Origin: a virus
Direction: 5' to 3' (one strand)
Length of the DNA: 57,091 nucleotides
Virus record (IMG/VR): IMGVR_UViG_3300018915_000004
Span: 1-57,091 of that record
Shown here: piece after piece, positions 128-54,630 of the stretch
Position numbering within the stretch: the stretch's first letter is position 1
Layout of the letters: each line of letters opens with the position of its first letter
The notes under the pieces: generated by a model
The model's input: only the letters and a program-made list of their open reading frames with translations
Databases searched by the model: none
What the model was told of the DNA's origin: nothing
Position numbers and translations under genes: made by a program

Positions 128-1637
128 GATTCCCGCCTTTTTCTCTAAAGTCTGGGCGCGTGTCTCAACTAGTGGCAAAGCGGCTTGGACAGCCACAGCA
201 AACGCGATCAAGCCTGTTTTGGCATCGGCTAAGAGGTTGACCCCATCAATCAAAAAAGGCGCTGTATCGGTTGCTAAGTTCGCTTACCAGGGTGCTGAGG
301 CTTTTGTATCTATTGGACTAATTGGCACCGCTCTAGCTGCTGTAGCGGGTGCTACGCTGCCTATATCTGCAATTGCTGGCTTGGCTGTCGGTGCTTGGTT
401 AGTGGTCAAGAATTGGCGGCAAATTCCCGCTTTCTTTTCTAAGGTTTGGGCGCGTGTCTCGACTAGTGGTAAGGCGGCTTGGTCTGGTCTAGTCGCCGGA
501 AGTCGATCCGCTGTAAGTGCGATCGCTCCCAAATTCCAGAAACTAGGAAGCAATGTTTCAACCTTTTTCTCACAATCATGGTCAAGTGTTGCAAATGGCG
601 GCAAAGCGGCTTGGGCATGGGTTGCAGCTAGCGGCAATAAAGCTTGGTCAGCGGTTGCAGCTAGTGGCAATAAAGCTTGGGCGTGGATCGCAACTACTAG
701 CAACAAGGTTTGGGTAGGAATTGCAAACAGCGGCAAGACTGCCTGGGCATGGGTTGCAACTAGCAGCAATAAGGCTTGGAATTGGATCGCAGCTATTAGT
801 AGCAATACTTGGGCATGGGTTGCAGCTAGCGGCAATAAAGCATGGTCAGCGGTTGCAAATGGCGGCAAGGCGGCTTGGGCGTGGATCGCGGCTAGTGGTG
901 GAAAAGCCTGGGCGTGGATCGCAACTAGCAGTAGCAATACTTGGGCATGGATCGCCGCTAGTGGCAATAAAGCATGGTCAGCGGTTGCGGCTAGTGGTGG
1001 TAAGGCTTGGGCGTGGATCTCAGCTAGTAGCAATAAGGCTTGGTCAGCAATTACAACGCCAATTGCTAATTTAGGATCACAGTTTTTCAATGCAGGAGCA
1101 AACCTGATCGGACAACTGATCCAAGGCATCAAAAGCGGGATAGGCGCTATTGTTGCAACGATCGCAAACATCACAGCTAGAATTAGAGCTTTCTTGCCTT
1201 TCAGCCCTGCCAAGCAAGGCGCTCTCTCTGATCTCGATAAAGTAAGCATACTTGGAACTGTTACCGCAAATGTTAGGCAGCAATCCGCGCCCTTAGCCAG
1301 TGCAGTAGGCGGCGCTATGCAAAGCGCTAGAACTGCGATCGCGCCTATTAGTGCAGTAGGCGGCGCTACTCAAGCCGCTGGAACTGCGATCGCTCCAAAC
1401 ACTACAACCACAGCAGACGGCGGTGGTAGTTTAATAGGCGGCGCTCCAAAATTGACCCCACCAACAAGCGGCGGCGGTATCACAATTAATTACAACCCGT
1501 CAATCACCCTACCAGGCGGCGGCACTCCCACGGAAGCGGATCGCGCTACATTCAGGGAAGAGTTAGCGCGTAACAGGGATGAAATTGCAAGGATTGTTGC
1601 AAGCCTTGATCGCAACAGGGCGCGAATTGCTTACTAA
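1..1637 (+). CDS. tail tape measure protein, C-terminal part (continues the ORF that starts at 54636, across the junction)
   Basis: Open from the window start to TAA 1635-1637 and in phase with 54636..57091 (56,964 is divisible by 3). Contains 14 tandem 11-aa W-repeats. Lies between the tail chaperone and the baseplate genes. Confidence 0.85.
   Translation, partial: EAFVSIGLITTALAAVAGATLPISAIVGLAVGAWLVVKNWRQIPAFFSKVWARVSTSGKAAWTATANAIKPVLASAKRLTPSIKKGAVSVAKFAYQGAEAFVSIGLIGTALAAVAGATLPISAIAGLAVGAWLVVKNWRQIPAFFSKVWARVSTSGKAAWSGLVAGSRSAVSAIAPKFQKLGSNVSTFFSQSWSSVANGGKAAWAWVAASGNKAWSAVAASGNKAWAWIATTSNKVWVGIANSGKTAWAWVATSSNKAWNWIAAISSNTWAWVAASGNKAWSAVANGGKAAWAWIAASGGKAWAWIATSSSNTWAWIAASGNKAWSAVAASGGKAWAWISASSNKAWSAITTPIANLGSQFFNAGANLIGQLIQGIKSGIGAIVATIANITARIRAFLPFSPAKQGALSDLDKVSILGTVTANVRQQSAPLASAVGGAMQSARTAIAPISAVGGATQAAGTAIAPNTTTTADGGGSLIGGAPKLTPPTSGGGITINYNPSITLPGGGTPTEADRATFREELARNRDEIARIVASLDRNRARIAY
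245..484 (+). repeat. second copy of a ~240-bp module inside the tape measure gene (first copy 56915..57091 plus 128..190)
   Basis: Near-identical stretches encode ..AKFAYQGAEAFVSIGLI..ALAAVAGATLPISAI.GLAVGAWLVVKNWRQIPAFFSKVWARVSTSGKAAW twice. Confidence 0.8.
588..1049 (+). repeat. 14 tandem 33-bp (11-aa) repeats in the tape measure protein
   Basis: Units VANGGKAAWAW / VAASGNKAWSA / IATTSNKVWVG ... ISASSNKAWSA, with Trp at a fixed 11-residue spacing. Confidence 0.9.
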
Positions 1638-1662
1638 TGTTAGACCAAATTTGAGACATCTT
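1637..1662. promoter_or_regulatory. 26-bp quasi-palindrome copy 1
   Basis: ATGTTAGACCAAATTTGAGACATCTT. Starts in the tape measure stop codon. ATG 1677 is 14 nt downstream. Confidence 0.85.
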
Positions 1663-1676
1663 TTAGAGGTTTTGCT

Positions 1677-2114
1677 ATGCCCTATTTATTGATCGGTGAT
1701 TTGGCGATCGTAGTTCAAGCGGTTCTAAATCTTTCCTACTCATTTAAGCAAGGTTTTGTGGAACAGGAAAAGATCGAAGCGCCGCCCACATTGCAGCAAG
1801 TAGGGCGCAATCTTTCAACGCTTAGCCTTGCTTGCCGTTTTCATTATGCCTACAGTAAGCCGGATCGAATGGTTGCCTCGCTGCTTGCTGCTTGTAACGC
1901 TGCCAAACCTCTTAGCTTGGTAGACGGGAGCGGCAATTATAAGGGTAAGTACGTCCTAGAATCCGTAGACGTTGCCCCCATTAAAACGGATAGCGACGGG
2001 CGATCATTTAGTGTAGATGTCAATCTAGCATTAAAGGAGTGGAGAACCGCCGCGCCTCCACAGGAACAAATGAGCGCGGCTGCTGTTTCACCCTTCAAGA
2101 AAGTTAAATCATGA
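1677..2114 (+). CDS. P2 gpU-like tail protein
   Basis: 145 aa. Sits directly after the tape measure gene. Pattern ..LVDGSGNYKGKYVLESVDV...F.V.L.L.EW resembles gpU. Confidence 0.6.
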   Translation: MPYLLIGDLAIVVQAVLNLSYSFKQGFVEQEKIEAPPTLQQVGRNLSTLSLACRFHYAYSKPDRMVASLLAACNAAKPLSLVDGSGNYKGKYVLESVDVAPIKTDSDGRSFSVDVNLALKEWRTAAPPQEQMSAAAVSPFKKVKS

Positions 2115-2341
2115 GTGAGTACACAGAATACATTACTAGGCAAGGCGATCGCGCCGATCTAATCGCTTTCTACTTCTACGGTAGCTTTTACAGTTATCCT
2201 CAACTCTTGCTTGATAATCCGATCCTTTTGCAAAAGCCGATTAGACCGATGTTACCCAGTGGGATTGTGCTAAAAATTGCCGTAGCAGATCCCGCGCCGC
2301 AACTGGTAGATCCGGCAATGCTGCCGCCCTGGAAAAGATAG
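2111..2341 (+). CDS. P2 gpX-like tail protein
   Basis: 76 aa with start overlapping the upstream stop (ATGA). YITRQGDRADLIAFYFYG...LP.G..L.I and a C-terminal PPW resemble gpX. Confidence 0.6.
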   Translation: MSEYTEYITRQGDRADLIAFYFYGSFYSYPQLLLDNPILLQKPIRPMLPSGIVLKIAVADPAPQLVDPAMLPPWKR

Positions 2342-2360
2342 ACCAAATTTGAGCGCTCTT
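2335..2360. promoter_or_regulatory. 26-bp quasi-palindrome copy 2
   Basis: AAGATAGACCAAATTTGAGCGCTCTT. Overlaps stop 2339-2341 and ends 4 nt before ATG 2365. Confidence 0.9.
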
Positions 2361-2364
2361 AATT

Positions 2365-3363: not shown

Positions 3364-3366
3364 TAA

Positions 3367-3918: not shown

Positions 3919-4140
3919 ATGACAGAGTTTACAGTAAACCAAGTTGGACAGGGCGCGATCATCTTTCGAGTATTAAGCAGCGCGGCAGCGGCGACTATTA
4001 CCGCTCTTAGAACCGGATCAACGGCTTGGCAACAGTTCAACACCGATGCAGCAGGGACGGCAGGAACGGCGATCAATTTGACACAACCGGGCGCGGCAGG
4101 GTCAACGATTGCTAACTTTAGCTGGCGAATCGTTGCATGA
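3919..4140 (+). CDS. hypothetical small baseplate-region protein
   Basis: 73-aa Ala/Thr-rich ORF packed between the gpV-like and gpW-like genes. Confidence 0.55.
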   Translation: MTEFTVNQVGQGAIIFRVLSSAAAATITALRTGSTAWQQFNTDAAGTAGTAINLTQPGAAGSTIANFSWRIVA

Positions 4141-4523
4141 CTTATTCAACTGACGAATGGTATTTGATAGAGGAAGTTTGGAAGCAAGGACAGATCGGAG
4201 CGCCGCAAGTTGTCTCAAATTTGGGCGATCTTAAGCAATGTATTGAGACGATCTTAAAAACCTATCCAGGTCAAGACAGTCTTAGACCTTTTGGATCGCG
4301 CATCCTTGACCACATCGACTTACCCATAGACATAGCCAGACCGTTGATCATCAGGGACGCTATAGACGCGATCGCCCTGTGGGAGCCAAGAGTAAATGTC
4401 CAAAGGGTTGTGGTAGAAGGCAACGTTGCCAAGGGTGAGTTGCTTTTGACTGTCTATTGGACGGTTAAAGATAGTACTACCTCAGGAGAGGCAGCGGTTG
4501 CATTTAGGAGCGCGATAGTATGA
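4137..4523 (+). CDS. gpW/gp25-like baseplate wedge protein
   Basis: 128 aa. ..CIETILKTYPGQDSLRPFGSRILDHID..IRDAIDAIALWEPRV matches the GPW/gp25 signature. Confidence 0.8.
   Translation: MTYSTDEWYLIEEVWKQGQIGAPQVVSNLGDLKQCIETILKTYPGQDSLRPFGSRILDHIDLPIDIARPLIIRDAIDAIALWEPRVNVQRVVVEGNVAKGELLLTVYWTVKDSTTSGEAAVAFRSAIV
4207..4232. promoter_or_regulatory. 26-bp quasi-palindrome copy 3 (inside coding sequence)
   Basis: AAGTTGTCTCAAATTTGGGCGATCTT, encoding QVVSNLGDLK of the gpW-like protein. Confidence 0.8.
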
Positions 4524-7908: not shown

Positions 7909-8493
7909 ATGCCTAGGCGCTTTTTTGTAGACATAGAACCGGATAGCGATCGCGGTCAAATAGTTGGAGAGTACAGAGGGATTGATATTGATCAGTATCA
8001 AACCATTGAAGCGATCGCCGCCGCCGATGACCTAGACCCAGACGATCTAGGGCGTTTGTACTACAAGAATGGAGAAGTTCGGGTTAAGCCAGAGCTACCA
8101 ACACCAGGGCGCTTTTACTGGGACATTGACGCGGAAGATTACCGCGAGATCCTAGACGTGTCAGGAATACCACGATCAGCCAACTACTCAGGCTTAAACG
8201 CCGATCTATCCCCTAATGGGAAACTAGGGCATTTACTCATAAAAGCAATGAACACAAAAGCGTCTCCTATGTTGCAAGGGATGCTCCCTACTGCGATCGC
8301 TTTTGGCAATCTTGACGCTCTTAAGACTTGCCTTGAGGCGATCGTTGGTCAGATGCCAGCAGACAGCCGTTTTACAGTGGAGGAAATGACGGCGCTTGCT
8401 AACTCGTTTAAAGCTAATAACATCCCTGCAAAGATTGTTGTAAAAGAAAAGTTATTGACCGCCGCCGTCTCAATCCAGGTCATTCCAACTTAA
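7909..8493 (+). CDS. hypothetical protein (possible tail fibre assembly or accessory protein)
   Basis: 194-aa ORF directly after the fibre gene and last in the + strand structural block. Confidence 0.55.
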   Translation: MPRRFFVDIEPDSDRGQIVGEYRGIDIDQYQTIEAIAAADDLDPDDLGRLYYKNGEVRVKPELPTPGRFYWDIDAEDYREILDVSGIPRSANYSGLNADLSPNGKLGHLLIKAMNTKASPMLQGMLPTAIAFGNLDALKTCLEAIVGQMPADSRFTVEEMTALANSFKANNIPAKIVVKEKLLTAAVSIQVIPT

Positions 8494-8500: not shown

Positions 8501-8526
8501 AAGAGCGCCCAAATTTGAGACAACTT
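8501..8526. promoter_or_regulatory. 26-bp quasi-palindrome copy 4
   Basis: AAGAGCGCCCAAATTTGAGACAACTT, between the convergent genes ending at 8493 (+) and 8592 (-). Confidence 0.8.
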
Positions 8527-9583: not shown

Positions 9584-9593
9584 AGTATAACAC
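9584..9593 (-). promoter_or_regulatory. extended -10 decamer GTGTTATACT
   Basis: Exact decamer on the - strand, 9 nt downstream of motif copy 5 and upstream of gene 9163..9522. Confidence 0.7.
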
Positions 9594-9602: not shown

Positions 9603-9628
9603 AAGATGCAACAAATTTGAGACATCTT
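9603..9628. promoter_or_regulatory. 26-bp quasi-palindrome copy 5
   Basis: AAGATGCAACAAATTTGAGACATCTT. Identical 26/26 to copy 21. Confidence 0.9.
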
Positions 9629-9671: not shown

Positions 9672-10250
9672 CTAGCGGCGGTTAGAGTAATTGGGTTCCC
9701 AGTTAAACTCATCCTCCTCATCAGCATCAGGACTAAAACCACACTGAGGACATACAAACCCATTAGGCGGCGGCAGATAACCCTTGATTTCTTCCACTGC
9801 TTCATCGTTTCTTAGCAGCAACTCATACGCCTCATCAGACTTACCCGCAAGCCATCCCACAGCCGCGATCAAGGCTTGCTCTCGACCTCTATAGTACGTT
9901 TCTCCATCAGGAGGACTAAAGGGCGCAAAATCACCGCTAGAGGCAGCAAGGCAACCGTAAGTTAGATCCCAGTATCCACTAGAGCGATCGCCCTGCCTCT
10001 CATCTCTTGGATTAGGGTCTAAAACTTCGGTAATTGCCAACTGATTAGGGAAGTGCAGATCTGAAGCTGGCAGGGCGTTCAACAGGGCGGCAACTTGCTC
10101 TAAAGGCTGTCTTGCTATCCGGTTGCTCATTATCCGCGCCTTAACCTGCTTGCTAAACTCATCCCAGGCGCTAACGCGGCGCGATCGCTCATCTGCGATC
10201 GCCTGAATCTCTCGGAAGCCTAAAACAATCTCATCATTGCTCTCATTCAT
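9672..10250 (-). CDS. hypothetical protein
   Basis: 192-aa ATG ORF with a C-terminal CPQCG motif. Confidence 0.6.
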   Translation of the reverse strand: MNESNDEIVLGFREIQAIADERSRRVSAWDEFSKQVKARIMSNRIARQPLEQVAALLNALPASDLHFPNQLAITEVLDPNPRDERQGDRSSGYWDLTYGCLAASSGDFAPFSPPDGETYYRGREQALIAAVGWLAGKSDEAYELLLRNDEAVEEIKGYLPPPNGFVCPQCGFSPDADEEDEFNWEPNYSNRR

Positions 10251-10293
10251 TAGCGGCTCTATCCTAAAGTTAGGTTTCTACATTTTAAAAGCT

Positions 10294-11085
10294 ATGGTCA
10301 CCCTAGAACCGGATCTATATCCTTTACTCAGTCGGCTTGCAACAACGTTGAACGCATCAATGGAAGTTCAAACGTTGGATATTGCAATCGCCAAGGAAGT
10401 GCAACAGATCTTGCAGGTCTGTAAAAGCGGTAAATATTTACACGGTTACTATCAGGGCGGAATAGACGGCAAAATCGGCAACCAAACCCGCGCCGCGTTT
10501 GCCGCTTTCAAGGCAGATCACTGGCTAGAATTTCCTGATGAAATAGGGCGATCCACTATCGCCGCTCTATTGGAAGTCGGGCGCGGCGTTCATCCTGTCA
10601 GTGAACAAGCGGCTAATTTTAATCAAAAGCCTTTACCTGAGGCAGGACAAAAGACAGGCGCTAAAATGACGCTCCCAACGGGAGAGATCGTCTACAGCAA
10701 TCAATGGATCTATCCTGGGTGTTATTTAACATGGGGCGAGTTCACAGCGAACTGTACCCGCAAGCTAGAACATAAATATCTGGTGGCAAATGCGATCGCC
10801 TACGCTAAAGTTTTTGGTTGGGTGCGTGACAAGTACGGCAGCGCGATAATATTGACTTCAGGCTATAGACCTCCCGCGATAAATAGAGCAGTGGGAGGCG
10901 CTAGGCAGTCAATGCACCTACAAGCACTCGCGGGAGATAAGCGCCCTCTAGATGGCAATTTGCCGCGCCTCCTAGAGGTAATGAAGGCATCGGCATTTAC
11001 AGGAATAGGTCTGGGCGGCTGTAAAGGATTTCAACACGGAGACTTAAGACCAGGCGATCGGGTTGTGTTTGGGTATGGGTGCTAA
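10294..11085 (+). CDS. endolysin: peptidoglycan-binding domain plus peptidase M15 (M15_3-like)
   Basis: GGIDGKIGNQTRAAFAAFK (PG-binding) and SGYRPPAINRAVGGARQSMHLQALAGD...GIGLGG..FQHGDLR (M15 metal ligands). ATG 10294 preferred over the TTG at 10237 used by the ORF track. Confidence 0.8.
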   Translation: MVTLEPDLYPLLSRLATTLNASMEVQTLDIAIAKEVQQILQVCKSGKYLHGYYQGGIDGKIGNQTRAAFAAFKADHWLEFPDEIGRSTIAALLEVGRGVHPVSEQAANFNQKPLPEAGQKTGAKMTLPTGEIVYSNQWIYPGCYLTWGEFTANCTRKLEHKYLVANAIAYAKVFGWVRDKYGSAIILTSGYRPPAINRAVGGARQSMHLQALAGDKRPLDGNLPRLLEVMKASAFTGIGLGGCKGFQHGDLRPGDRVVFGYGC

Positions 11086-11086: not shown

Positions 11087-11112
11087 TCGTTAGACCAAAT
11101 TTGAGACATCAT
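11087..11112. promoter_or_regulatory. 26-bp quasi-palindrome copy 6
   Basis: TCGTTAGACCAAATTTGAGACATCAT, 1 nt after the endolysin stop codon and abutting a 13-bp-stem hairpin. Confidence 0.85.
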
Positions 11113-11151: not shown

Positions 11152-11892
11152 TTAGAGCGCCGCGATTAATTCCTTAGCTAAATCGTTAATACTGCCAATC
11201 CCTCTAAGCGTCTTACGTTTGCCGCTCATCACTAAATCAATTCGTTGCTGCTTTTGACCTAAGAGGGCATCAATCATGATATCAATGTCGCTAAGCTGCA
11301 ACCATATCGCGTTAACTGTAGATTTTTGCCCGATTCTATGCGCTCTGTCCTCTGCTTGTTCCGCGTCGCCTGGTGTCCAGGGGCGATCGCACATAATCAC
11401 ATAGCTTGCCGCTGTCAGGGTTAAGCCTACGCCTCCCGCTCTTATTGTTCCTACAAATGCTTTAGACGTTCCTGCCTGGAAGCGCTCAACCATGTCTTGA
11501 CGCTTATCTGATTCAACGTCGCCTGTCAGCAACTCTACTGAGGTTGTCTCGCCTAACGTTGCCGCGATCGCTTTGGCTGATTCTAAAAACTCAGTAAAGA
11601 TGATCACTTGTTCGCCGCTTTCTAGTAGTTCCTGTACTGTCTCAATCGCTGCTGCTGCCTTGTACTTGCTCCCAATCCGGCGCAATGCTTGCAGGGTTAC
11701 TAAAACCTCAGCATCCGGATCAACCTCTCCCAGTTCGGCGCGGCGGCGGAAGTCAGCAACAGCGGCTTGTATTTCTGAGTTGTAAGCGGCTTCATCGGCG
11801 GCGCTTAAGTCAATTGGACGGAGCGATCGCAACTTCTCAGGCAAGTCTAAACAGTCATGCTTTTTACGCTGCAAGATCACGTCTTGTGTCAT
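11152..11892 (-). CDS. stand-alone SNF2-family helicase C-terminal lobe
   Basis: ..ILQRKKHD.LDLPEK.., FTEF......L, LTGDV....RQ..V.RFQ, GGVGLTLTAAS.VI..D..WTPG...QAEDRAHRIGQ (motifs IV-VI). No DEXH N-lobe nearby. Confidence 0.7.
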   Translation of the reverse strand: MTQDVILQRKKHDCLDLPEKLRSLRPIDLSAADEAAYNSEIQAAVADFRRRAELGEVDPDAEVLVTLQALRRIGSKYKAAAAIETVQELLESGEQVIIFTEFLESAKAIAATLGETTSVELLTGDVESDKRQDMVERFQAGTSKAFVGTIRAGGVGLTLTAASYVIMCDRPWTPGDAEQAEDRAHRIGQKSTVNAIWLQLSDIDIMIDALLGQKQQRIDLVMSGKRKTLRGIGSINDLAKELIAAL

Positions 11893-12339: not shown

Positions 12340-12365
12340 AAGATCGCTCAAATTTGGTCTATCTT
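12340..12365. promoter_or_regulatory. 26-bp quasi-palindrome copy 7
   Basis: AAGATCGCTCAAATTTGGTCTATCTT. Identical 26/26 to copy 31. Lies between the -10 decamer and ATG 12335. Confidence 0.9.
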
Positions 12366-12370: not shown

Positions 12371-12380
12371 AGTATAACAC
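12371..12380 (-). promoter_or_regulatory. extended -10 decamer GTGTTATACT
   Basis: Exact decamer on the - strand, 5 nt upstream of motif copy 7. The predicted TSS falls at the motif edge. Confidence 0.65.
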
Positions 12381-12846: not shown

Positions 12847-12872
12847 AAGTTGTCTCAAATTCAATACATCTT
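12847..12872. promoter_or_regulatory. 26-bp quasi-palindrome copy 8 (degenerate core)
   Basis: AAGTTGTCTCAAATTCAATACATCTT, 4 nt from ATG 12842. Confidence 0.65.
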
Positions 12873-14020: not shown

Positions 14021-14046
14021 TTGATAGCTCAAATTTGAGACATCAT
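14021..14046. promoter_or_regulatory. 26-bp quasi-palindrome copy 9
   Basis: TTGATAGCTCAAATTTGAGACATCAT. Encodes the last residues (..MMSQI*) of the ParB-domain protein. Confidence 0.85.
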
Positions 14047-16095
14047 GGCAATTAATACGCGGCTCATCAGGTAAGCCTTGATCTCTTCATCCGTTGGGAG
14101 AGATTCGATCAACTCTTCTGCCGCCTCTCCCTGCCTCATGTAGCCGTTCCAAACCCCATCACTATCCAACTCAATCCGTAGGCTGTAGCCTTGCCATTGG
14201 CACTCAGTACCTACCCAAATAGGAAGCTTGATCACTTCCTTGGCATCAAGCGTGGAAGTTGCGATCATCTCCCGTTGGAAGGTTACAAGGCAATGTCCAG
14301 AGAAAACCCGCTCAAAATTTAGCTTATCCTCAGGATTCTTAGAGTAAAACAGGATCGTTGTGTCGTAGCGGTTTGTAGAGCTTCCGCTTTCTTTAGGCTC
14401 TCCCTCTTTAGGGAAGAGATTGTTGTAACGGAAGATCTCACCCTCCTCAAACTCCAAGCGACCACCCCACTGGGCAACAGTAAAACCATGCTTTTTAATG
14501 AGCGCCTGACACGTTGGCAGGTTTGTAATAGAGTTCTGGCTAATAATGAACATCCGATCAACTTGCCCCAATTCAATCCAGTAAGCGAGCGCTTGGAAGC
14601 ATTTAACCTGCTCTCCCCACAAGACATTGGCAAAAACATCTCCCTTAACCTCATTGACGTAGTTAGATCCTTCCTTCTTTAAGAAGTCATCAACAACCGT
14701 GTACTGATGGGTAGAGGGAATGTGATCCAAGTTGGTCAAGTCAGCGAAAGCATCATAATCAAACTCATTGCGCTTGATGGTTTCCAAGCACATATCGACT
14801 ACAAAGCGCTTAGTAAGGCGGTTGTCGCTTGGCTTATCGCCGTAGTCATCCCGCGCCTGTTTAGCTAGCCTCCATACGGCGCGTTGCTCATCAGATGCGT
14901 TGATCCAACGATCGCGGCAAGCTGGCTGTAACTCCTCAACCTCTTTCTCTAGCGCTTCTAGCTCCTCCTCTGGCATCTCATCAAGTGGGTTGCTTTCTAC
15001 TACAGCCGCCGCGCCCTTGCTTCCGTTGCTTGCAGCAGCGCCGCCGCTGTTGCCTCCTCCTCCTCCACTGCCAGCATTACCGCTGCCACTGTTTTTCTTG
15101 CCTTTACCCCTGGTAATCACGGCGTTACGTTCCGCGATCGCTCGTTTAGCATCTGCGATCGCCTTGGTTGCGTTGGTTCGGCTTTTGTCCGTACTTAAGA
15201 GGTTATGGCAAGCCGCGATCATAACTTCATCAGTCAGGTTTTCACGGTCTTTATCGCGTTGGTAGATTTGCTTGAGGGAGATTGCCGCGTGAGTTGATTT
15301 TGTTCTTACCTGCTTCCATAGGCTCACTAACTCCTCATTCTTAATCCCTTCTAAAAACTTGTCTACCGTTAACTGATTTTGTAGATCAGTTGGCTTCATT
15401 CCTAGCTTTTCCGCAACGATCCTGATTGCCTTGCCTTGCTCCTCCTTAGGAACTCCCGTTATTCTGGCTTGCGATCGCCGCTTATGTGCCTTGAGTTGCT
15501 CAATCTCGATCAACACTGCTGCCTCAGCAAGGATAGTATCGCGGCTCTTATTCTCACGATATTGATTCTCCTTGATGAGCGCTTCTAGCTCATCCTCTGG
15601 GCTGTCAAAGCGCTTAACGATTACTGGGACTAGGCTAATCTTTTTAGTGTTGTGTAACCGCTCTGACTCTTCATTGATCTGGTTTATGCAGAAATTGCGG
15701 CGGTGTCCTGAGATGATTAATCCCTCAGGAGTGATGATGTACTCCGATACATAAGGGGAGTCGCTGTTAAGAAGCTCATAAAGCTTTTGGGTTTCCTCAT
15801 CCCCTGCATAAATTACCTTGTTTTTGGGATGAGGAACTAAGAGGCTAGGATCGACTTTAATGATCTGCAATTCATCAGCGCTTAAATCACCTGAAACCTG
15901 GTGATACTTGCGGATCACGGCATGAATTGCGATCTCGCGATCGCTTGTCAAACTGCCAGACCAAACCAAGTTGCCATCATCTAGCAAACAGGGGTAGTAA
16001 TTGCCCTCAACTTCTTTAACTGAAAGTGTGTATTGACCTTCCTGCCGCTGAAAAGAAAGCTGATTTGCTGGGATTGCTTCAATTGTTGCTGTCAT
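14029..16095 (-). CDS. ParB-like nuclease domain protein fused to a Dam-like (phage N6-adenine methyltransferase fold) domain with an atypical catalytic motif
   Basis: ParB/Srx box ..PHPKNKVIY...IISGHRRNFC. Gly/Ser linker. The C-terminal block order FDYDAFAD / VFANVLWG / MFIISQNSIT / GGRLEFEEG follows Dam family blocks, but NVLW replaces (D/N)PPY. Start trimmed to ATG 16095 because the track GTG at 16143 lies in the -10 decamer. Confidence 0.65.
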   Translation of the reverse strand: MTATIEAIPANQLSFQRQEGQYTLSVKEVEGNYYPCLLDDGNLVWSGSLTSDREIAIHAVIRKYHQVSGDLSADELQIIKVDPSLLVPHPKNKVIYAGDEETQKLYELLNSDSPYVSEYIITPEGLIISGHRRNFCINQINEESERLHNTKKISLVPVIVKRFDSPEDELEALIKENQYRENKSRDTILAEAAVLIEIEQLKAHKRRSQARITGVPKEEQGKAIRIVAEKLGMKPTDLQNQLTVDKFLEGIKNEELVSLWKQVRTKSTHAAISLKQIYQRDKDRENLTDEVMIAACHNLLSTDKSRTNATKAIADAKRAIAERNAVITRGKGKKNSGSGNAGSGGGGGNSGGAAASNGSKGAAAVVESNPLDEMPEEELEALEKEVEELQPACRDRWINASDEQRAVWRLAKQARDDYGDKPSDNRLTKRFVVDMCLETIKRNEFDYDAFADLTNLDHIPSTHQYTVVDDFLKKEGSNYVNEVKGDVFANVLWGEQVKCFQALAYWIELGQVDRMFIISQNSITNLPTCQALIKKHGFTVAQWGGRLEFEEGEIFRYNNLFPKEGEPKESGSSTNRYDTTILFYSKNPEDKLNFERVFSGHCLVTFQREMIATSTLDAKEVIKLPIWVGTECQWQGYSLRIELDSDGVWNGYMRQGEAAEELIESLPTDEEIKAYLMSRVLIAMMSQI

Positions 16096-41347: not shown

Positions 41348-41373
41348 AAGATGTCTCAAGTTTGTTGCATCTT
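41348..41373. promoter_or_regulatory. 26-bp quasi-palindrome copy 27
   Basis: AAGATGTCTCAAGTTTGTTGCATCTT. This is the reverse complement of copies 5 and 21 with one core change. Confidence 0.85.
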
Positions 41374-41865: not shown

Positions 41866-41891
41866 ATGATGTCTCAAGTTTGAGCGATCAT
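41866..41891. promoter_or_regulatory. 26-bp quasi-palindrome copy 28
   Basis: ATGATGTCTCAAGTTTGAGCGATCAT. TATGTA lies 11 nt downstream. Sits at the head of the packaging/structural operon. Confidence 0.85.
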
Positions 41892-44065: not shown

Positions 44066-44299
44066 ATGACAGATAAAACGATTCAAGATTTTGTTGATTT
44101 TGTGAATCGGGAATGTATTGGCAAAGTCATTCAAAAAGCTTACACTCTCCCTAATTTTGTCCCTGCTGTAAAAATTGAGTTTAATGACGGATCATCTGTC
44201 GAAATTTTCGGGGAACATGATGAAGGCTTTTGTATTGACTGGGCAGAAGAAACCACAACAGCAGATAACAATCATTTAGATGTCTCAAATTTGAGCTAA
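44066..44299 (+). CDS. hypothetical protein
   Basis: 77 aa from ATG 44066. The C-terminus ..DVSNLS* is encoded by motif copy 29. Confidence 0.5.
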   Translation: MTDKTIQDFVDFVNRECIGKVIQKAYTLPNFVPAVKIEFNDGSSVEIFGEHDEGFCIDWAEETTTADNNHLDVSNLS

Positions 44300-44302
44300 C
44301 TT
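44277..44302. promoter_or_regulatory. 26-bp quasi-palindrome copy 29
   Basis: TAGATGTCTCAAATTTGAGCTAACTT. Ends 4 nt before the portal ATG 44307. Confidence 0.85.
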
Positions 44303-46743: not shown

Positions 46744-46769
46744 AAGATAGCCCAAATTTGAGACATCAA
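46744..46769. promoter_or_regulatory. 26-bp quasi-palindrome copy 30
   Basis: AAGATAGCCCAAATTTGAGACATCAA. Starts 1 nt after the HNH stop and ends 4 nt before ATG 46774. Confidence 0.85.
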
Positions 46770-49368: not shown

Positions 49369-49821
49369 ATGGCAACCAAAAAACCAGTTAAAAACCTGAC
49401 AGGTAGCGCAATAAGCTACAGAGGGAAAACTTACCCGATAGGCGCGGAAATTCCAGGCGATCTTGCGGCTGAGATGGGTTTAGAGTCGTTACCCGCTCAA
49501 ATTGCAGGGCAACAATCACAACAGCAACAACTGCCAATAACAATCAATGAGCGCGATCCTTTTGCGATCGCCGCCGCTCAATTCATTGCCCCTCCTCCCG
49601 CTCCTGCTAGCAGGGAGATCCCGGCAACATTGCAAAATGAGCCGTTAACGCCTTCAAGCAATGTTATTGATCTTGAGGATCAAGAATTGCCTGAGAACTT
49701 AGAAGGACTGGAGGAGCAACCGCCGCAAGAAGGGAAACAGGCAATTGATGAGCAAGGGGAACAACCGCCGCCGCCTCCTGAGACTGAAGTTAAAAAGAGT
49801 AGAAGATCTACCAACTCTTGA
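49369..49821 (+). CDS. hypothetical Pro/Gln-rich protein
   Basis: 150-aa ATG ORF preceded by AAGAGG. Confidence 0.6.
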   Translation: MATKKPVKNLTGSAISYRGKTYPIGAEIPGDLAAEMGLESLPAQIAGQQSQQQQLPITINERDPFAIAAAQFIAPPPAPASREIPATLQNEPLTPSSNVIDLEDQELPENLEGLEEQPPQEGKQAIDEQGEQPPPPPETEVKKSRRSTNS

Positions 49822-50207
49822 CAATGATTAACTCTGAACAGGCGATCGCTTTTATCCGCGCAATTCCTGCCGTTGCCGTTGTTTACAACAGTAACCATGA
49901 TCCGTTTATTCATAGTCTACTAGAGGCAACCAAGGGACAATTGCCCGTTGAGGAGGGCAAGCCACATCAATATTATTACCGTGTGTGGTTCGCCGCTTAC
50001 AGGTATTTACAACAATCTCCTGAACTCTTCCGAGTCAAAAAGCATGATCGGACGGAATTAGGTAGTTATGAATCTCCTCTCACGATGCTTTTGGAGCAAC
50101 AGGCGGCAGAGGATAGGCGGCTAGGGTTGCTCATCCCCGTAGGTCAATCAACGCTTGCACCAGTAGATCACTACACTGTCTCAATCAGGACAACAACCGA
50201 ATTTTAA
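49818..50207 (+). CDS. hypothetical head-tail region protein
   Basis: 129 aa with start overlapping the upstream stop. Confidence 0.6.
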   Translation: MTMINSEQAIAFIRAIPAVAVVYNSNHDPFIHSLLEATKGQLPVEEGKPHQYYYRVWFAAYRYLQQSPELFRVKKHDRTELGSYESPLTMLLEQQAAEDRRLGLLIPVGQSTLAPVDHYTVSIRTTTEF

Positions 50208-50231
50208 GATCGCTCAAATTTGGTCTATCTT
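50206..50231. promoter_or_regulatory. 26-bp quasi-palindrome copy 31
   Basis: AAGATCGCTCAAATTTGGTCTATCTT. Identical to copy 7. Overlaps stop 50205-50207 and ends 3 nt before ATG 50235. Confidence 0.9.
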
Positions 50232-53383: not shown

Positions 53384-53393
53384 GAACAAAAAA

Positions 53394-53909
53394 ATGACTC
53401 AGATAATCAGAAATCTGAATACTAGCGTAATTTGGATCGCTGGGACGGACTTTCAAGGACTCGTTAAGGATGTCGAGCTTCCAGAGCTAGAAAGCGAAAT
53501 AGACGACGATGGGAGATCAGGCTTAGTAGGTATTAGCCCAAGCTTTGTAGGGATACAAAAGCCTGAGGCAACATTTACCTTTGCGTCTTGGTCAATCCGT
53601 TGGGCGCATGAATTCACAGACCTAACCAAATTAATCTATGTAACATTTCGGGGCGCTCTAGCTGATTCCCGCGATGCTACAAATGTACAACCCTATGTTG
53701 TGACAGTGGCAGGATTGAGCATGAAAGCGCCTATGGGCGGCGCGTCTCCTCAAGAAAATACAGAATGGGAGTGTGGTTTGCACGTAACTGCCATCCGGCA
53801 AACAGTTGATGGTACGGAAATACTTAATTACAACGCTGAAACCAACGAATATAGTGTACTTGGAAAAGATATCCTGAAGAGTACACGCCAAGCGCTAGGA
53901 CTTGTTTAG
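53394..53909 (+). CDS. tail tube protein
   Basis: 171 aa. ..NLNTSVIWIAGTDFQGLVKDVELPELESE..D.....G resembles major tail tube proteins. Follows the sheath gene. Confidence 0.75.
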   Translation: MTQIIRNLNTSVIWIAGTDFQGLVKDVELPELESEIDDDGRSGLVGISPSFVGIQKPEATFTFASWSIRWAHEFTDLTKLIYVTFRGALADSRDATNVQPYVVTVAGLSMKAPMGGASPQENTEWECGLHVTAIRQTVDGTEILNYNAETNEYSVLGKDILKSTRQALGLV

Positions 53910-54453
53910 TATGACTAAGACCGTAAAACTGAAAGGAGACAGGATCGCAGAAGTCAAACCATTGACAGCGAGAGATTTTTTTGAATTCAACGAACAAGCG
54001 CAAAAATTAGGGGCATCGGCGGCTAGCTTAGGTCTGTTTTTGAAGGCGGTCACAGTAAACGGTGAACCCGTCACACCCGAAAATATTAATCAGCTTCTAA
54101 GGTTTCGCGATCGCCTTAAGGTTGATGCTTTTGTTTTTAAGGTGGACGGTGAACCGAAGATCAACGACGGCGCGGATCAGTTTTTTGACTCGGAAGATTT
54201 CACCCTGCCAGACGGCAGACGGATCGAGGTGCTTGATCCTGATGGGTCACTGTATGATTCTTATGTTGCAACTCAAGGCAAGAGTTACAGCAAAGCGCTC
54301 GCCCTTGCATTTAAAGGGTTGTTTACGATTGACGGTAAGCCGTTGGACGATCAAGCGCTAGACACTCTTTACCCTGAGGGACTAGGCTTTGAGGCGGCGG
54401 CGCTTTTACTCCCCTACTTAGTGAGTTTTTTTCAACCCTCCCAAGCCCCCTAG
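53902..54453 (+). CDS. tail assembly chaperone (P2 gpE / lambda gpG analogue)
   Basis: 183 aa, between the tube and tape measure genes. Carries a slippery heptamer near its 3' end. Confidence 0.7.
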   Translation: MFSMTKTVKLKGDRIAEVKPLTARDFFEFNEQAQKLGASAASLGLFLKAVTVNGEPVTPENINQLLRFRDRLKVDAFVFKVDGEPKINDGADQFFDSEDFTLPDGRRIEVLDPDGSLYDSYVATQGKSYSKALALAFKGLFTIDGKPLDDQALDTLYPEGLGFEAAALLLPYLVSFFQPSQAP

Positions 54454-54602
54454 ACCTGATCGCCCTTTGTAAAGTAACGGGTTGGAGTTTAAGCGATTTT
54501 GAAAAAAAAAGCTTTTCTTCAATCCGTTTTTGGTTGAAACAAGCAATTGAGTATCAACGCTTGGAGGTAAAAGCAACAAAAGAAGCAAGCAAGGGCAAGT
54601 AA
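53902..54602 (+). CDS. predicted -1 frameshift extension of the tail chaperone (gpE+E' / gpGT analogue)
   Basis: Slippery T TTT TTT at 54426-54432 in the zero frame. The -1 frame stays open for 56 more codons (..WSLSDFEKKSFSSIRFWLKQAIEYQRLEVKA..) to TAA 54600-54602. Confidence 0.6.
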
Positions 54603-54604
54603 AA

Positions 54605-54630
54605 GTGATGTCCCAAATTTGAGCTATCTT
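54605..54630. promoter_or_regulatory. 26-bp quasi-palindrome copy 32
   Basis: GTGATGTCCCAAATTTGAGCTATCTT. Ends 5 nt before the tape measure ATG 54636. Confidence 0.85.

What the first reader, a model, noticed from the sequence alone, without database searches (positions are those of the whole stretch)
1637..54630. 32 copies of a 26-bp quasi-palindrome (AAGATnnnnCAAATTTGnnnnATCTT) mark nearly every gene-block boundary
What I saw:
- Copies start at 1637, 2335, 4207, 8501, 9603, 11087, 12340, 12847, 14021, 16142, 16182, 18256, 19470, 21930, 23163, 25986, 27463, 28392, 29620, 31486, 33309, 34910, 34994, 37303, 38410, 40479, 41348, 41866, 44277, 46744, 50206 and 54605.
- The core CAAATTTG is exact in 27 copies. 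The other five carry one or two core changes (CAAGTTTG twice, CAAACTTG, CAAATTTA, CAAATTCA).
- The arms AAGAT and ATCTT sit at fixed distance from the core.
- A palindromic 8-mer is expected about once in 57 kb, and core plus arms essentially never.
- 28 of the 32 copies lie in short spacers or straddle a stop or start codon. They occur in both transcription directions and in the structural, replication and accessory modules alike.

What I infer: this is a multi-site operator or control element for one sequence-specific dimeric factor, giving genome-wide coordination.

Known parallels, as analogy only and not homology:
- The KorB OB operators spread over IncP plasmids. KorB is a ParB-family protein, and this genome encodes a ParB-domain protein at 14029..16095.
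- The stoperators of cluster A mycobacteriophages.
- The start-associated sequences of cluster K mycobacteriophages.

I do not recall an equivalent described for a cyanophage, but I cannot search.
Basis: partly seen in the sequence, partly recalled or inferred. Interest (0 to 1): 0.9.

Follow-up and report, generated by a model that had tools for sequence, protein, structure and literature searches.

The report
Dispersed 26-bp protein-binding palindrome in cyanophage
An uncultured cyanobacterial virus carries 32 copies of a 26-base near-palindrome wedged between its genes; it is most likely the docking site of a virus-encoded ParB-type DNA-binding protein that controls the whole genome, an arrangement known from plasmids and mycobacterial viruses but not described for cyanophages.

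Summary
All 32 copies are at the stated coordinates. A position weight matrix separates them cleanly (16.6 bits or more, 31 of them 26 or more) from the next-best site (6.7 bits) and from shuffles (maximum 13.7).

The element is not an RNA or DNA hairpin. The inner 4-mers are never complementary within a copy (0 observed, 5 expected), the arms show no compensation, and folds are weak (mean -3.7 kcal/mol).

It is not a host repeat in the genomes scanned. It is found only in this uncultured, HIP1-rich myovirus clade.

In relatives the copies sit at the same gene junctions, but the consensus has changed in all copies of a lineage together (core CAAGCTTG, CAGATTTG, CGAATTYG or CAACCTTG; arms AAGTT or AAGGT). 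This fits co-evolution with a factor acting in trans.

About a quarter of the copies overlap the core of extended -10 promoters (GTGTTATACT) at a preferred spacing. About a third end 0-6 nt before a start codon.

The 704-aa protein at 14029-16143(-) has a ParB/Noc-like N-terminal and HTH fold. Its gene is preceded by a double site plus promoter in three of four phages (one clear site in the fourth).

Best reading: operator or loading sites for this ParB-family protein, working like KorB. This is inferred, not shown. I rate it a new variant of a known kind.

The parts
1637..1662 (.). motif copy 1 (ATGTT AGAC CAAATTTG AGAC ATCTT)
   Evidence: Its first base is the last base of the tape-measure stop codon. 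It ends 14 nt before ATG 1677.
2335..2360 (.). motif copy 2, start-adjacent
   Evidence: It contains the TAG stop of 2111..2341. It ends 4 nt (AATT) before ATG 2365.
4207..4232 (.). motif copy 3, intragenic
   Evidence: It lies inside ORF 4137..4523.
8501..8526 (.). motif copy 4, convergent junction
   Evidence: It starts 7 nt after the stop of 7909..8493. It is embedded in the only terminator-like hairpin that involves a copy (8504-8533).
9603..9628 (.). motif copy 5, promoter class
   Evidence: TGTTATACT follows 10 nt downstream on the minus strand (box 9585-9593).
11087..11112 (.). motif copy 6 (exact core, degenerate arms)
   Evidence: 26.8 bits. It starts 1 nt after the stop of 10237..11085(+), which faces 11152..11892(-).
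12340..12365 (.). motif copy 7, start-adjacent, with a promoter box upstream
   Evidence: On the minus strand the order is TGTTATACT, 5 nt, motif, AATT, ATG 12335.
12847..12872 (.). motif copy 8 (core CAAATTCA), start-adjacent
   Evidence: It ends 4 nt before ATG 12842 (minus strand). TGCTACACT abuts it on the upstream side.
14021..14046 (.). motif copy 9
   Evidence: It contains the stop of the ParB-like gene. A copy sits at the same junction in L092, L094 and L095.
16142..16167 (.). motif copy 10, proximal site of the tandem pair upstream of the ParB-like gene
   Evidence: Its promoter-proximal arm is replaced by GTGTTATACT (16135-16143). The same layout is seen in L095.
16182..16207 (.). 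motif copy 11 (core CAAATTTA), distal site of the tandem pair
   Evidence: It lies 14 nt from copy 10 and contains the stop of the helicase gene.
18256..18281 (.). motif copy 12
   Evidence: It lies next to the stop of 18278..19075(-). A copy sits at the same junction in L092 and L094.
19470..19495 (.). motif copy 13, promoter class
   Evidence: GTGTTATAC (19447-19455, minus strand) follows 14 nt downstream. It overlaps the stop of 19494..21359(-). A copy sits at the same junction in L092 and L094.
21930..21955 (.). motif copy 14
   Evidence: It lies between the called genes 21960..22124(-) and 21416..21901(-).
23163..23188 (.). motif copy 15
   Evidence: It overlaps the stop of 23185..23415(-).
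25986..26011 (.). motif copy 16
   Evidence: It contains the stop of 25994..26293(-).
27463..27488 (.). motif copy 17, promoter class
   Evidence: TGTTACACT follows 10 nt downstream (minus strand). The called gene 27165..27419(-) comes next.
28392..28417 (.). motif copy 18, divergent region
   Evidence: It lies between the start of 27487..28350(-) and 28523..28810(+). TGTTATACT lies 29 nt to its right.
29620..29645 (.). motif copy 19, intragenic
   Evidence: It lies inside 28888..30387(-).
31486..31511 (.). motif copy 20, intragenic
   Evidence: It lies inside 31292..31792(+).
33309..33334 (.). motif copy 21, in the 3' end of a gene
   Evidence: It lies inside 33250..33741(-), 55 nt upstream of ATG 33253.
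34910..34935 (.). motif copy 22
   Evidence: It starts 53 nt after the stop of 34491..34856(+), and lies 84 nt before copy 23 (start to start).
34994..35019 (.). motif copy 23 (core CAAACTTG), overlaps a start codon
   Evidence: Its last two bases are the AT of ATG 35018.
37303..37328 (.). motif copy 24
   Evidence: It starts 1 nt after the stop of 36771..37301. A copy sits at the same junction in L087.
37331..37343 (+). extra half-site TTGAGACATCTT beside copy 24
   Evidence: It is part of the best unlisted PWM hit (6.7 bits).
38410..38435 (.). motif copy 25 (exact core, degenerate arms)
   Evidence: 27.3 bits. It ends 27 nt before ATG 38463.
40479..40504 (.). motif copy 26, promoter class
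   Evidence: TGTTATATT follows 10 nt downstream (plus strand). A copy sits at the same junction in L087.
41348..41373 (.). motif copy 27 (core CAAGTTTG)
41866..41891 (.). motif copy 28 (core CAAGTTTG), upstream of the small terminase gene
   Evidence: A copy sits at the same junction in L087 (9393) and L089 (4021).
44277..44302 (.). motif copy 29, start-adjacent (portal)
   Evidence: It ends 4 nt (AATT) before ATG 44307. A copy sits at the same junction in L087 (13075) and L089 (6309).
46744..46769 (.). motif copy 30, start-adjacent (scaffold)
   Evidence: It ends 4 nt (AATT) before ATG 46774. A copy sits at the same junction in L089 (7821).
50206..50231 (.). motif copy 31, start-adjacent
   Evidence: It overlaps the stop of 49818..50207 and ends 3 nt before an ATG. 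A copy sits at the same junction in L087 (20362) and L089 (11609).
54605..54630 (.). motif copy 32, start-adjacent (tape measure)
   Evidence: It ends 5 nt before ATG 54636 of the 1,321-codon tape-measure ORF.
14029..16143 (-). ParB/Noc-like protein gene (704 aa from GTG 16143; probable ATG start at 16095, 688 aa). Candidate binder of the motif.
   Evidence: Alignment A1 shows invariant LLVPHPKN, SGHRRN and ENQYRENKS boxes and an HTH. The domain model (residues 85-345) has pLDDT 82, and the top 15 Foldseek PDB hits are all ParB, Noc or pNOB8 ParB (E 2e-5 to 1.4e-3). Pfam, PHROGs and PDB sequence searches find nothing.
16135..16143 (-). extended -10 box GTGTTATAC(T) of the ParB-like gene promoter
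   Evidence: It is conserved in L092, L094 and L095.
9585..9593 (-). extended -10 box beside copy 5
12372..12380 (-). extended -10 box upstream of copy 7
19447..19455 (-). extended -10 box beside copy 13
27445..27453 (-). extended -10 box (GTGTTACAC) beside copy 17
28446..28454 (+). extended -10 box 28-29 nt from copy 18
40514..40522 (+). extended -10 box (GTGTTATAT) beside copy 26

Best explanation
The 26-bp element is a site on double-stranded DNA for a phage-encoded, sequence-specific protein that binds as a symmetric dimer. The most likely protein is the ParB/Noc/KorB-family protein encoded at 14029-16143(-).

Proposed mechanism:
- The protein recognises AAGAT(G) arms two helical turns apart, plus the CAA..TTG core.
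- At about a quarter of the sites it sits on the core of host-type extended -10 promoters and represses them. These sites cover the -35 region, the spacer or the transcription start. The promoter of its own gene, which has two sites, is among them.
- The remaining sites lie in the short gaps between gene blocks. They act either as roadblocks or as distal loading sites from which the protein reaches promoters, as KorB does from distal OB sites.

Shown here:
- The sites exist and the list is complete.
- The element is specific to this phage clade.
- The copies keep their positions across relatives.
- The consensus changes in a whole lineage at once.
- Hairpin-forming versions are avoided.
- Copies have a preferred spacing to the -10 boxes.
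- The candidate protein has a ParB-like fold.

Inferred, not shown:
- That this protein binds these sites.
- That it binds CTP.
- That binding represses transcription.
For: 1. The element is not a hairpin.
- Left and right N4 are complementary in 0 of 32 copies, against 5.0 expected from permutation (P=0.002). Across all phages the count is 1 against 8.1 expected (P=0.0006).
- The arms pair no better than in permutations.
- Mean RNA folding energy is -3.7 kcal/mol. Perfect palindromes built from the same half-sites give -14 to -18.

2. The consensus changes lineage by lineage while positions are kept.
- L087, L089 and L094 have core CAAGCTTG; L095 CARATYTG; L092 CAGWTTTG; L177 CGAATTYG.
- L175 has AAGGT..CAACCTTG..AACTT, and L090 has arms AAGTT..AACTT.
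- Within a lineage the change is seen in all copies.
- The copies nonetheless sit at the same gene junctions: helicase|ParB, ParB|methylase, methylase|next gene, before the portal gene, before the small terminase gene, and others.

3. Link to promoters.
- GTGTTATAC, an extended -10 box, occurs 8 times exactly, against about 0.4 expected.
- The distance from motif end to the TG of the box peaks at 9-11 nt, in 12 of about 93 copies across the phages.
- Other copies overlap the box or lie just downstream of it.
- All these placements overlap the core promoter, which is where repressors sit.

4. The candidate protein.
- Residues 85-345 fold like the ParB/Noc N-terminal domain plus HTH.
- Homologues are present in all four phages where both it and the motif could be examined.
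- Its gene is preceded by a tandem pair of sites plus the -10 box in the window, L095 and L092, and by one site plus a decayed one in L094.
- The predicted recognition helix DLQNQL is shared by the phages with AAGAT arms. L175 has ELRSKI and AAGGT arms.

5. Known ParB-family regulators use many dispersed palindromes. KorB operators lie 4-10 bp, or 45 to more than 1,000 bp, upstream of promoters (PMC11790492).
Against: - No binding or expression data exist.
- The site is 26 bp and has three parts, whereas ParB, KorB and Noc sites are 13-16 bp.
- The Pfam ParB model does not detect any of the 8 homologues, even at E=1.
- No ParA or KorA partner, integrase or repressor was found among the proteins scanned. 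A role in lysogenic or plasmid-like silencing therefore has no independent support.
- Nine or ten copies end -2 to +6 nt from a start codon, often with the same AATT spacer. A DNA operator has no need for that.
- In L092 the element is asymmetric, and its orientation follows transcription in 9 of 10 cases (P=0.02). This is unexpected for a symmetric dimer.
- The match between protein and site rests on seven related lineages and is not statistically independent.
Confidence: 0.45

Rival explanations
1. The sites are operators for a different phage-encoded dimeric regulator, for example a small HTH or RHH protein with no detectable family. The ParB-like protein is only one of the genes it regulates.
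For: - All the evidence for a double-stranded DNA site applies equally here.
- Most proteins of this phage have no family assignment, so an unrecognised regulator could be present.
- The protein at 28523-28810 has a weak HTH_23 hit (E=0.0099). It sits in a divergent region that holds a site and a -10 box.
Against: - The 95-aa protein has only one detectable homologue, whereas the motif is conserved over far more distant relatives.
- No other conserved DNA-binding protein was found in the regions that could be compared.
- The tandem site upstream of the ParB-like gene is the arrangement expected of a self-regulated binding protein.
Confidence: 0.25
2. The element is itself part of a promoter: a -35 or upstream element (TTGAGA, or TTGACA in L092) read by host RNA polymerase, possibly with a phage activator or sigma factor. 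Nearly every gene block would then have its own promoter.
For: - The downstream half reads TTGAGA or TTGACA.
- A -10 box follows at a preferred distance in a subset of copies.
- In L092 the orientation follows transcription.
Against: - Only about 10-15% of flanks carry a TAnnnT hexamer at the right distance.
- The spacer from TTG to the -10 hexamer would be 19 nt.
- Start-adjacent copies leave no room for a -10 box and a leader.
- Other copies lie downstream of the -10 box, or at convergent junctions.
- In the window the element is symmetric and shows no orientation bias.
- Overall, sigma-70-like promoter matches are at chance level.
Confidence: 0.1
3. The element works in the mRNA. It is a translation-initiation or processing signal like the start-associated sequences of Cluster K mycobacteriophages, or an RNase site between gene blocks.
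For: - Nine or ten of the 32 copies end -2 to +6 nt from a start codon, five of them with an AATT or AATC spacer.
- The same is seen in relatives.
- In some relatives the right N4 becomes GGAG, a ribosome-binding sequence.
- Many copies overlap stop codons.
Against: - A single-stranded RNA signal has no need for dyad symmetry.
- The hairpin is counter-selected and weak.
- The promoter-class copies lie upstream of the predicted transcription start, so they would not be in that gene's mRNA.
- Some copies lie at convergent junctions or inside genes.
- No Rfam family matches.
Confidence: 0.08
4. The copies are boundary sequences for recombination. Short shared repeats or recombinase sites would let gene cassettes be swapped between related phages.
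For: - A PAPS-reductase gene inserted in L087 is flanked by two copies (11696, 13075), where the window has only one.
- The homologue of 27487-28350 sits at a different place in L094, and it is flanked by copies in both genomes.
- A non-homologous block upstream of the small terminase gene is bounded by copies in both genomes.
Against: - About 40% of all junctions carry a copy, so most insertions or deletions would touch one by chance. No enrichment test was possible.
- No recombinase was found in the window.
- Thirty-two active, symmetric recombination sites would scramble the genome.
- This model does not explain the preferred spacing to promoters.
Confidence: 0.07
5. The element is a repeat family of the host chromosome that the phage merely shares.
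For: The phage shares the host-type HIP1 octamer at very high density. Shared oligonucleotide biases therefore do exist.
Against: - Exact-pattern scans of 185,579 species-representative genomes, of JGI metagenomes and of IMG/VR returned only isolated single hits.
- None of these was clustered, and none shares a protein with the window.
Confidence: 0.02

Closest known systems
KorB-OB system of IncP-1 plasmids (ParB-family CTPase acting as global repressor; PMC11790492); also Noc and its dispersed binding sites
   Same: - A ParB-fold protein with an HTH is encoded by the element.
- Many palindromic sites are spread over the whole replicon.
- Some sites lie directly at the -35 region of promoters and others far from any promoter.
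- The regulator's own promoter carries sites.
   Different: - The site is 26 bp and has three parts, against 13-16 bp.
- There are 32 sites in 57 kb, against 12 in 60 kb (the RK2 count is from my own knowledge).
- No KorA or ParA partner was found.
- The protein carries an extra N-terminal beta domain and a roughly 290-aa C-terminal domain with weak methyltransferase-like matches.
- CTP binding is untested.
- The replicon is a tailed phage.
17-bp dyad-symmetric repeats of Cluster O mycobacteriophages (PMC4351075)
   Same: - More than 30 copies per genome.
- Dyad symmetry.
- Mostly at gene junctions, on both strands.
- No consistent orientation.
- Mostly not at predicted promoters.
- Those phages also encode ParB-like domain proteins and have no integrase.
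- The function is unknown there, and the authors predicted that a dimeric protein binds the repeats.
   Different: - The sequence is unrelated (TGTTCGGNNNCCGAACA).
- Those repeats are perfect inverted repeats, whereas here perfect symmetry is avoided.
- The authors report no close link to start codons, whereas a third of the copies here are start-adjacent.
Stoperators of Cluster A mycobacteriophages (PMC6550527, PMC9283540)
   Same: - Dozens of sites for one phage protein, at gene junctions across the genome, plus operator sites at an early promoter.
- The site consensus and the protein specificity diverge together between lineages.
   Different: - Stoperators are 13-14 bp, asymmetric and bound by a monomer.
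- They are oriented with transcription. Here only the L092 variant shows such a bias.
- Those phages are temperate and have an identified immunity repressor.
Start-associated sequences of Cluster K mycobacteriophages
   Same: A repeated motif lies a few bases upstream of start codons in a subset of genes.
   Different: - The start-associated sequence is asymmetric and includes the ribosome-binding site.
- Only about 30% of the copies here are start-adjacent.
- This comparison rests on the description in PMC4351075 and on my own knowledge.

Membership tests
ParB/KorB/Noc protein with cognate palindromic sites | The element encodes a protein with a ParB/Srx N-terminal domain followed by an HTH DNA-binding domain. 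| tested here: met
   The AF2 model of residues 85-345 has pLDDT 82. The top 15 Foldseek PDB hits are Noc, ParB and pNOB8 ParB, covering 231-281 aligned columns, with E from 2e-5 to 1.4e-3 and probability 1.0. The full-length model also has pNOB8 ParB as its top hit.
ParB/KorB/Noc protein with cognate palindromic sites | Sequence signature of the CTP-binding ParB N-domain (GxxRxxA box, ENxxR box), detectable by the family profile. | tested here: inconclusive
   SGHRRN and ENQYRENKS are invariant in 8 homologues and resemble the ParB boxes. However, the Pfam ParB_N model does not match any homologue, even at E=1, and PDB sequence searches find nothing.
ParB/KorB/Noc protein with cognate palindromic sites | The site is a 13-16 bp palindrome. 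| tested here: not met
   The site has dyad symmetry, but it is 26 bp long, with conserved arms 8-13 bp from the centre and semi-conserved N4 blocks.
ParB/KorB/Noc protein with cognate palindromic sites | The protein binds the sites, and CTP closes it into a sliding clamp. | not testable with these tools
   Biochemistry is needed. The only indirect support is the tandem site at the protein's own promoter and the protein/site comparison across lineages.
ParB/KorB/Noc protein with cognate palindromic sites | A partner protein (ParA ATPase or KorA-type co-repressor). | tested here: not met
   None was found among about 60 window proteins scanned with Pfam or PHROGs. Not every small ORF was scanned.
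Cluster A stoperators | A short asymmetric site whose orientation follows transcription. | tested here: not met
   In the window, the upstream and downstream halves have the same base frequencies once copies are oriented by transcription. Only the relative L092 shows a bias (9 of 10, P=0.02).
Cluster A stoperators | A temperate phage with an immunity repressor and an integrase. | tested here: not met
   No integrase or repressor family was found in the window. A distant relative, L176, does have an integrase.
Cluster K start-associated sequences | The motif lies at a fixed short distance upstream of start codons in essentially all copies. | tested here: not met
   Only 9-10 of 32 copies end -2 to +6 nt from a start codon. 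The others are 14-76 nt away, at convergent junctions or inside genes.
Cluster O 17-bp dyad repeats | More than 30 dispersed dyad-symmetric copies, mostly at gene junctions, without orientation. | tested here: met
   compared with PMC4351075. The resemblance is one of kind only, as the sequences are unrelated.
Intrinsic terminator or structured RNA repeat | A stable stem kept by compensatory changes. For terminators, also a run of T. | tested here: not met
   No compensation was found, and there is a deficit of pairing in N4. Mean folding energy is -3.7 kcal/mol. Only copy 8501 lies within a terminator-like site. No Rfam family matches.
Host genomic repeat (HIP1-like or REP-like) | Comparable density in bacterial chromosomes. 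| tested here: not met
   Scans of genomes, metagenomes and viral contigs gave only isolated, unrelated hits.

The most novel reading that the evidence does not exclude
The ParB-like protein is a CTP-gated clamp that loads at the 32 sites and spreads over the whole phage chromosome.

- In this reading the protein, which carries a methyltransferase-like C-terminal domain and is always encoded next to a C5 DNA methylase gene, acts as a phage-made chromatin.
- That chromatin silences host-type promoters and marks or protects the phage's own DNA.
- The fast joint drift of site and protein (AAATTT, AAGCTT, GAATTC and CC/GG cores) then defines incompatibility groups, so that related phages infecting the same cell do not cross-regulate each other.
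Probability: 0.12. Interest if true: 0.85.

Novelty: new variant of a known kind. Interest (0 to 1): 0.6.

Why it matters
**The open question.** Genome-wide sets of identical protein-binding palindromes are known from a few plasmids and actinobacteriophages. In the closest published case (Cluster O mycobacteriophages, PMC4351075) their function is still unknown.

**What this case adds.** This clade gives a second, independent example, in an uncultured group of cyanophages. It has features that make the question testable:
- The site set is clean and complete.
- The sites sit at a preferred distance from recognisable promoters.
- There is a single conserved candidate binding protein, with a ParB/Noc fold.
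- There is a natural series of lineages in which the site has changed, which suits specificity-swap experiments.

**If the ParB link holds.** It would extend KorB-type global regulation by a ParB-family protein from plasmids to a tailed phage. It would also show how such a system diversifies.

**A further point.** Hairpin-forming versions of the site are avoided. This is a small but clear example of selection acting on a binding site because it is transcribed.

Tried and rejected
- **Known phage?** A megablast of 25 kb against INPHARED found no match. The large terminase is less than 32% identical to that of any isolated phage.
- **Motif in IMG/VR.** Three patterns gave only isolated, unrelated hits. 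The clade is absent from that collection.
- **Motif in reference genomes and JGI metagenomes.** All hits were single and none shares a protein with the window. One cyanobacterial MAG hit (L011) looked similar in type but was isolated.
- **Hairpin, terminator or RNA family.** Rejected by the pairing statistics, the folding energies, the terminator scan and Rfam.
- **Orientation in the window.** There is none. My first impression that exactly one GTCT-type half per copy gives the element a polarity did not correlate with the direction of transcription.
- **Sigma-70 promoter scan.** Matches are at chance level. Only the extended -10 box stands out.
The protein at 28523-28810 has a sub-threshold HTH_23 hit and one homologue only. 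The protein at 30582-30770 has no hit.
- **Sequence-level identification of the ParB-like protein.** Pfam, PHROGs, and PDB searches with phmmer and with a profile all failed. Only the fold comparison worked.
- **Other large proteins.** The 621-aa and 499-aa proteins remain unidentified.
- **Cassette-boundary idea.** The examples were noted, but no enrichment test was possible with partial genomes.

Full report
**1.

- The pattern AAGATN4CAAATTTGN4ATCTT with up to three mismatches gives 30 hits, against 0.06 expected.
- The octamer CAAATTTG occurs 27 times, against 2.2 expected. Every occurrence lies inside one of the listed copies.
- I read all 32 copies in the sequence.
- A symmetrised weight matrix built from the 32 copies holds 34 bits.
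  - The listed copies score 16.6 bits or more, and 31 of them score 26 or more.
  - The best other position in the window scores 6.7 bits. It is a spare half-site beside copy 37303.
  - Shuffled sequence reaches 13.7 bits at most.
  - The family is therefore complete and has no borderline members.

**2. What the window is**

- The window is a metagenome contig, JGI 3300018839 Ga0193606_1000090. Nearly the same genome was assembled independently from ENA and Logan data, with different end points.
- The two ends of the window share a 127-bp direct repeat, which is the overlap of a circular assembly.
  - With the overlap removed the genome is 56,964 bp.
  - A single 1,321-codon tape-measure gene then runs from 54636 across the junction to 1637.
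- The genome encodes a large terminase, portal, major head protein, tail sheath and baseplate. It also encodes two helicase-type proteins, a C5 DNA methylase and HNH endonucleases.
- Most proteins match no known family.
- No isolated phage is close.
- The cyanobacterial octamer HIP1 (GCGATCGC) occurs 124 times, against 1.1 expected. The host is therefore a HIP1-rich cyanobacterium.

**3. Anatomy of the element**

- The four bases on each side of the core are not free. Read outward-in, a half-site is AAGAT, then GT, AG or CG, then C (sometimes A), then T or C, then CAAA. The two halves have mirror-image base frequencies.
- Within a single copy, however, the left and right 4-mers are never complementary.
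  - In the window, 0 of 32 copies are complementary, against 5.0 expected when the halves are re-paired at random (P=0.002).
  - Only 44 base pairs form, against 61 expected (P=0.003).
  - Over all the related phages the count is 1 against 8.1 expected (P=0.0006).
- Variants in the arms are not compensated.
- As RNA, the copies fold at -3.7 kcal/mol on average, and only 13 of 32 pair their arms. Perfect palindromes made from the same half-sites would fold at -14 to -18 kcal/mol.
- No Rfam family matches. Only copy 8501 lies within a terminator-like hairpin.
- Conclusion: the element is a symmetric site on double-stranded DNA, and versions that would form a hairpin are selected against. This makes sense because most copies are transcribed and lie on or beside stop and start codons.

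**4. The element belongs to a phage clade, not to a host**

- Exact-pattern scans of IMG/VR, of one genome for each of 185,579 species, and of JGI metagenomes returned only isolated single matches. None shares a protein with the window.
- Caveats: these outputs are capped at about 80 loci, and the host is unknown.

**5. Relatives**

I found relatives through the large terminase and through the 704-aa protein. They carry the same architecture with a different consensus:

| Locus | Basis and identity | Consensus |
|---|---|---|
| L087, L089, L094 | terminase 71-74% (L087, L089); 704-aa protein 51% (L094) | AAGAT GTNN CAAGCTTG NNAC ATCTT |
| L095 | 704-aa protein 81% | core CARATYTG |
| L177 | 704-aa protein 53% | core CGAATTYG |
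| L092 | 704-aa protein 49% | AAGAC CTCT CAGWTTTG AYAC ATCTT |
| L175 | 704-aa protein 45% | AAGGT AGGG CAACCTTG CCCC AACTT |
| L090 | terminase 65% | arms AAGTT..AACTT |

- L088 (terminase 70%) has only two copies, with core CAAGTTTG. A more distant phage (L091, terminase 45%) and a Symploca contig (L176) lack the element.
- Within each lineage, all copies and both halves carry the change.
- The copies nonetheless occupy the same gene junctions in genomes whose proteins are only 45-70% identical. These junctions include:
  - after the 621-aa gene;
  - between the helicase gene and the 704-aa gene;
  - between the 704-aa gene and the methylase gene;
  - after the methylase gene;
  - before the small terminase gene;
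  - directly before the portal gene;
  - before the scaffold gene;
  - after the homologue of 49818-50207.
- Kept positions combined with a consensus that shifts as a whole are what co-evolution with one factor acting in trans would produce. A structure-based element would instead show independent compensated changes in single copies.

**6. Relation to promoters and genes**

- A second over-represented word is GTGTTATAC(T), a near-consensus extended -10 box (TGnTATACT). It has 8 exact copies, against about 0.4 expected.
- Across all the phages, the distance from the end of the motif to the TG of such a box peaks at 9-11 nt, in 12 of about 93 copies. A TAnnnT hexamer is enriched at exactly the matching offset.
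  - With the usual geometry this puts the centre of the motif near -38.5, so that its proximal half covers the -35 region.
- Other placements also occur:
  - the box replaces the proximal arm (16142, and two copies in relatives);
  - the box abuts the motif upstream (12847);
  - the box lies 5 nt upstream, so that the motif covers the transcription start (12340).
- All these placements overlap the core promoter. A repressor would sit there, whereas an activator would be expected at one fixed upstream position.
- A second class of 9-10 copies ends -2 to +6 nt from a start codon, five of them with an AATT or AATC spacer. These copies usually begin on or right after the preceding stop codon. In this class the element essentially is the intergenic spacer.
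- In the window the element shows no orientation relative to transcription. In L092 the asymmetric core follows transcription in 9 of 10 co-directional contexts (P=0.02).

**7. The candidate binding protein**

- An alignment of eight homologues shows invariant LLVPHPKN, SGHRRN and ENQYRENKS boxes, followed by a helix-turn-helix (IRIVAEKLGMKPTDLQNQL).
- A domain model of residues 85-345 has pLDDT 82. Its top 15 Foldseek PDB matches are all Noc, ParB or pNOB8 ParB, each covering both the N-terminal and the DNA-binding domain (E from 2e-5 to 1.4e-3).
- The C-terminal 290 residues give only weak methyltransferase-like matches.
- The gene is conserved next to the C5 methylase gene in every relative examined.
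- Its upstream region holds the only conserved tandem arrangement of the motif, followed by GTGYTATACT. There are two sites in the window, L095 and L092, and one site plus a decayed one in L094. This is the usual mark of a self-regulated DNA-binding protein.
- The predicted recognition helix is DLQNQL in the three lineages with AAGAT arms, DLSQKL in L092 and ELRSKI in L175, which has AAGGT arms. This is suggestive only, because there are seven lineages and they are not independent.

**8. Interpretation**

- I think the element is the operator or loading site of a phage-encoded symmetric DNA-binding protein, most likely this ParB-family protein.
- It would act much as KorB does on IncP-1 plasmids, where operators lie either directly upstream of the -35 region or far from promoters (PMC11790492). 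Here it would repress host-type promoters, and it would either block transcription or load at the junctions between gene blocks.
- The site properties, the clade specificity, the kept positions, the lineage-wide change, the avoidance of hairpins, the spacing to promoters and the ParB fold are shown.
- Binding, CTP dependence and repression are inferred.
- Points against:
  - the site is 26 bp long and has three parts;
  - no ParA, KorA, integrase or repressor was found;
  - the start-adjacent class and the polarity in L092 are not explained by a plain operator model.
- Rivals are another unrecognised regulator, a promoter element, an mRNA-level signal and recombination boundaries.
  - For the last of these I noted three cases where inserted or moved genes are flanked by copies.
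  - With about 40% of junctions occupied, this is not more than chance would give.

**9. Comparison with known systems, and novelty**

- The closest published analogue in kind is the 17-bp dyad repeat of Cluster O mycobacteriophages (PMC4351075).
  - It has more than 30 copies, mostly at junctions, and no orientation.
  - Its function is unknown, and the authors predicted that a dimeric protein binds it.
  - Those phages also encode ParB-like domain proteins.
- Stoperators share the genome-wide spread and the joint divergence of site and protein. They differ in being asymmetric, oriented and bound by a monomeric immunity repressor (PMC6550527, PMC9283540).
- My full-text searches found no equivalent described for cyanophages.
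- I rate this a new variant of a known kind. It is of moderate to high interest because the system is unusually clean and directly testable.

Noticed in passing
window 1-127 and 56965-57091: The two ends of the window are an identical 127-bp direct repeat, the overlap left by a circular assembly. The real genome is 56,964 bp. With the overlap removed, one 1,321-codon tape-measure ORF runs 54636..56964 plus 1..1637. The minus-strand ORFs listed between 54692 and 56905 are therefore spurious.
   Followed up: yes
whole window: The cyanobacterial HIP1 octamer GCGATCGC occurs 124 times (1.1 expected), about once per 460 bp. GATC occurs 644 times against 196 expected. All relatives are also HIP1-rich. 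Some motif half-sites (AAGATCGCC) contain six bases of HIP1.
   Followed up: partly
window 9585, 12372, 16135, 19447, 28446, 30363, 30823, 47645 (GTGTTATAC): A near-consensus extended -10 promoter box has eight exact copies (about 0.4 expected). It is conserved upstream of the same genes in relatives. The copies at 30363, 30823 and 47645 have no intact motif nearby. The site at 47675 has perfect arms but a destroyed core, and may be a decayed copy.
   Followed up: partly
window 14029-16143(-) and 12883-13944(-); L091 4723-6285: The ParB-like gene is followed directly by a C5 cytosine methylase gene in every relative. Even the distant phage L091 has a short ParB_N protein next to a C5 methylase. 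The ParB-like protein's own C-terminal domain gives weak methyltransferase-like (MT-A70/MTA1) fold matches and appears to lack the catalytic motif.
   Followed up: partly
L092 (ENA ERZ27229718 k119_115189), 14 copies: In this relative the element is asymmetric (AAGAC CTCT CAGWTTTG AYAC ATCTT). The orientation of its core follows the direction of transcription in 9 of 10 co-directional contexts (P=0.02).
   Followed up: partly
window 24598-25194(-), 33708-34367(-), 46032-46742(+): There are three HNH endonuclease paralogues. The one at 46032-46742 is inserted between the portal gene and motif copy 46744, at a place where relatives L089 and L090 have no gene.
   Followed up: no
L087 11696-13100; L094 8973-9922: Genes gained or moved between relatives are flanked by motif copies on both sides. 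One is a PAPS-reductase gene between the terminase and portal genes in L087. The other is the homologue of window 27487-28350, relocated between the helicase and ParB-like genes in L094.
   Followed up: partly
L176 77-105 and 9346-9374 (Symploca sp. MAG contig JAAHGL010000269.1): This distant relative has a tyrosine integrase gene and lacks the 26-bp motif. It carries the 29-bp near-palindrome AAGGTTTGCGTAAATATTACGCAAACCTT, in opposite orientations, near both contig ends.
   Followed up: no
window 19494-21359(-), 28888-30387(-): Two large conserved proteins of the replication region (621 and 499 aa) have no match in Pfam, PHROGs or PDB sequences.
   Followed up: partly
window 39722-40204(-), 39010-39765(-): An FHA-domain protein (E=3e-11) lies next to a protein with a weak match to the holin family of cyanophage Pam3 gp28.
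   Followed up: no
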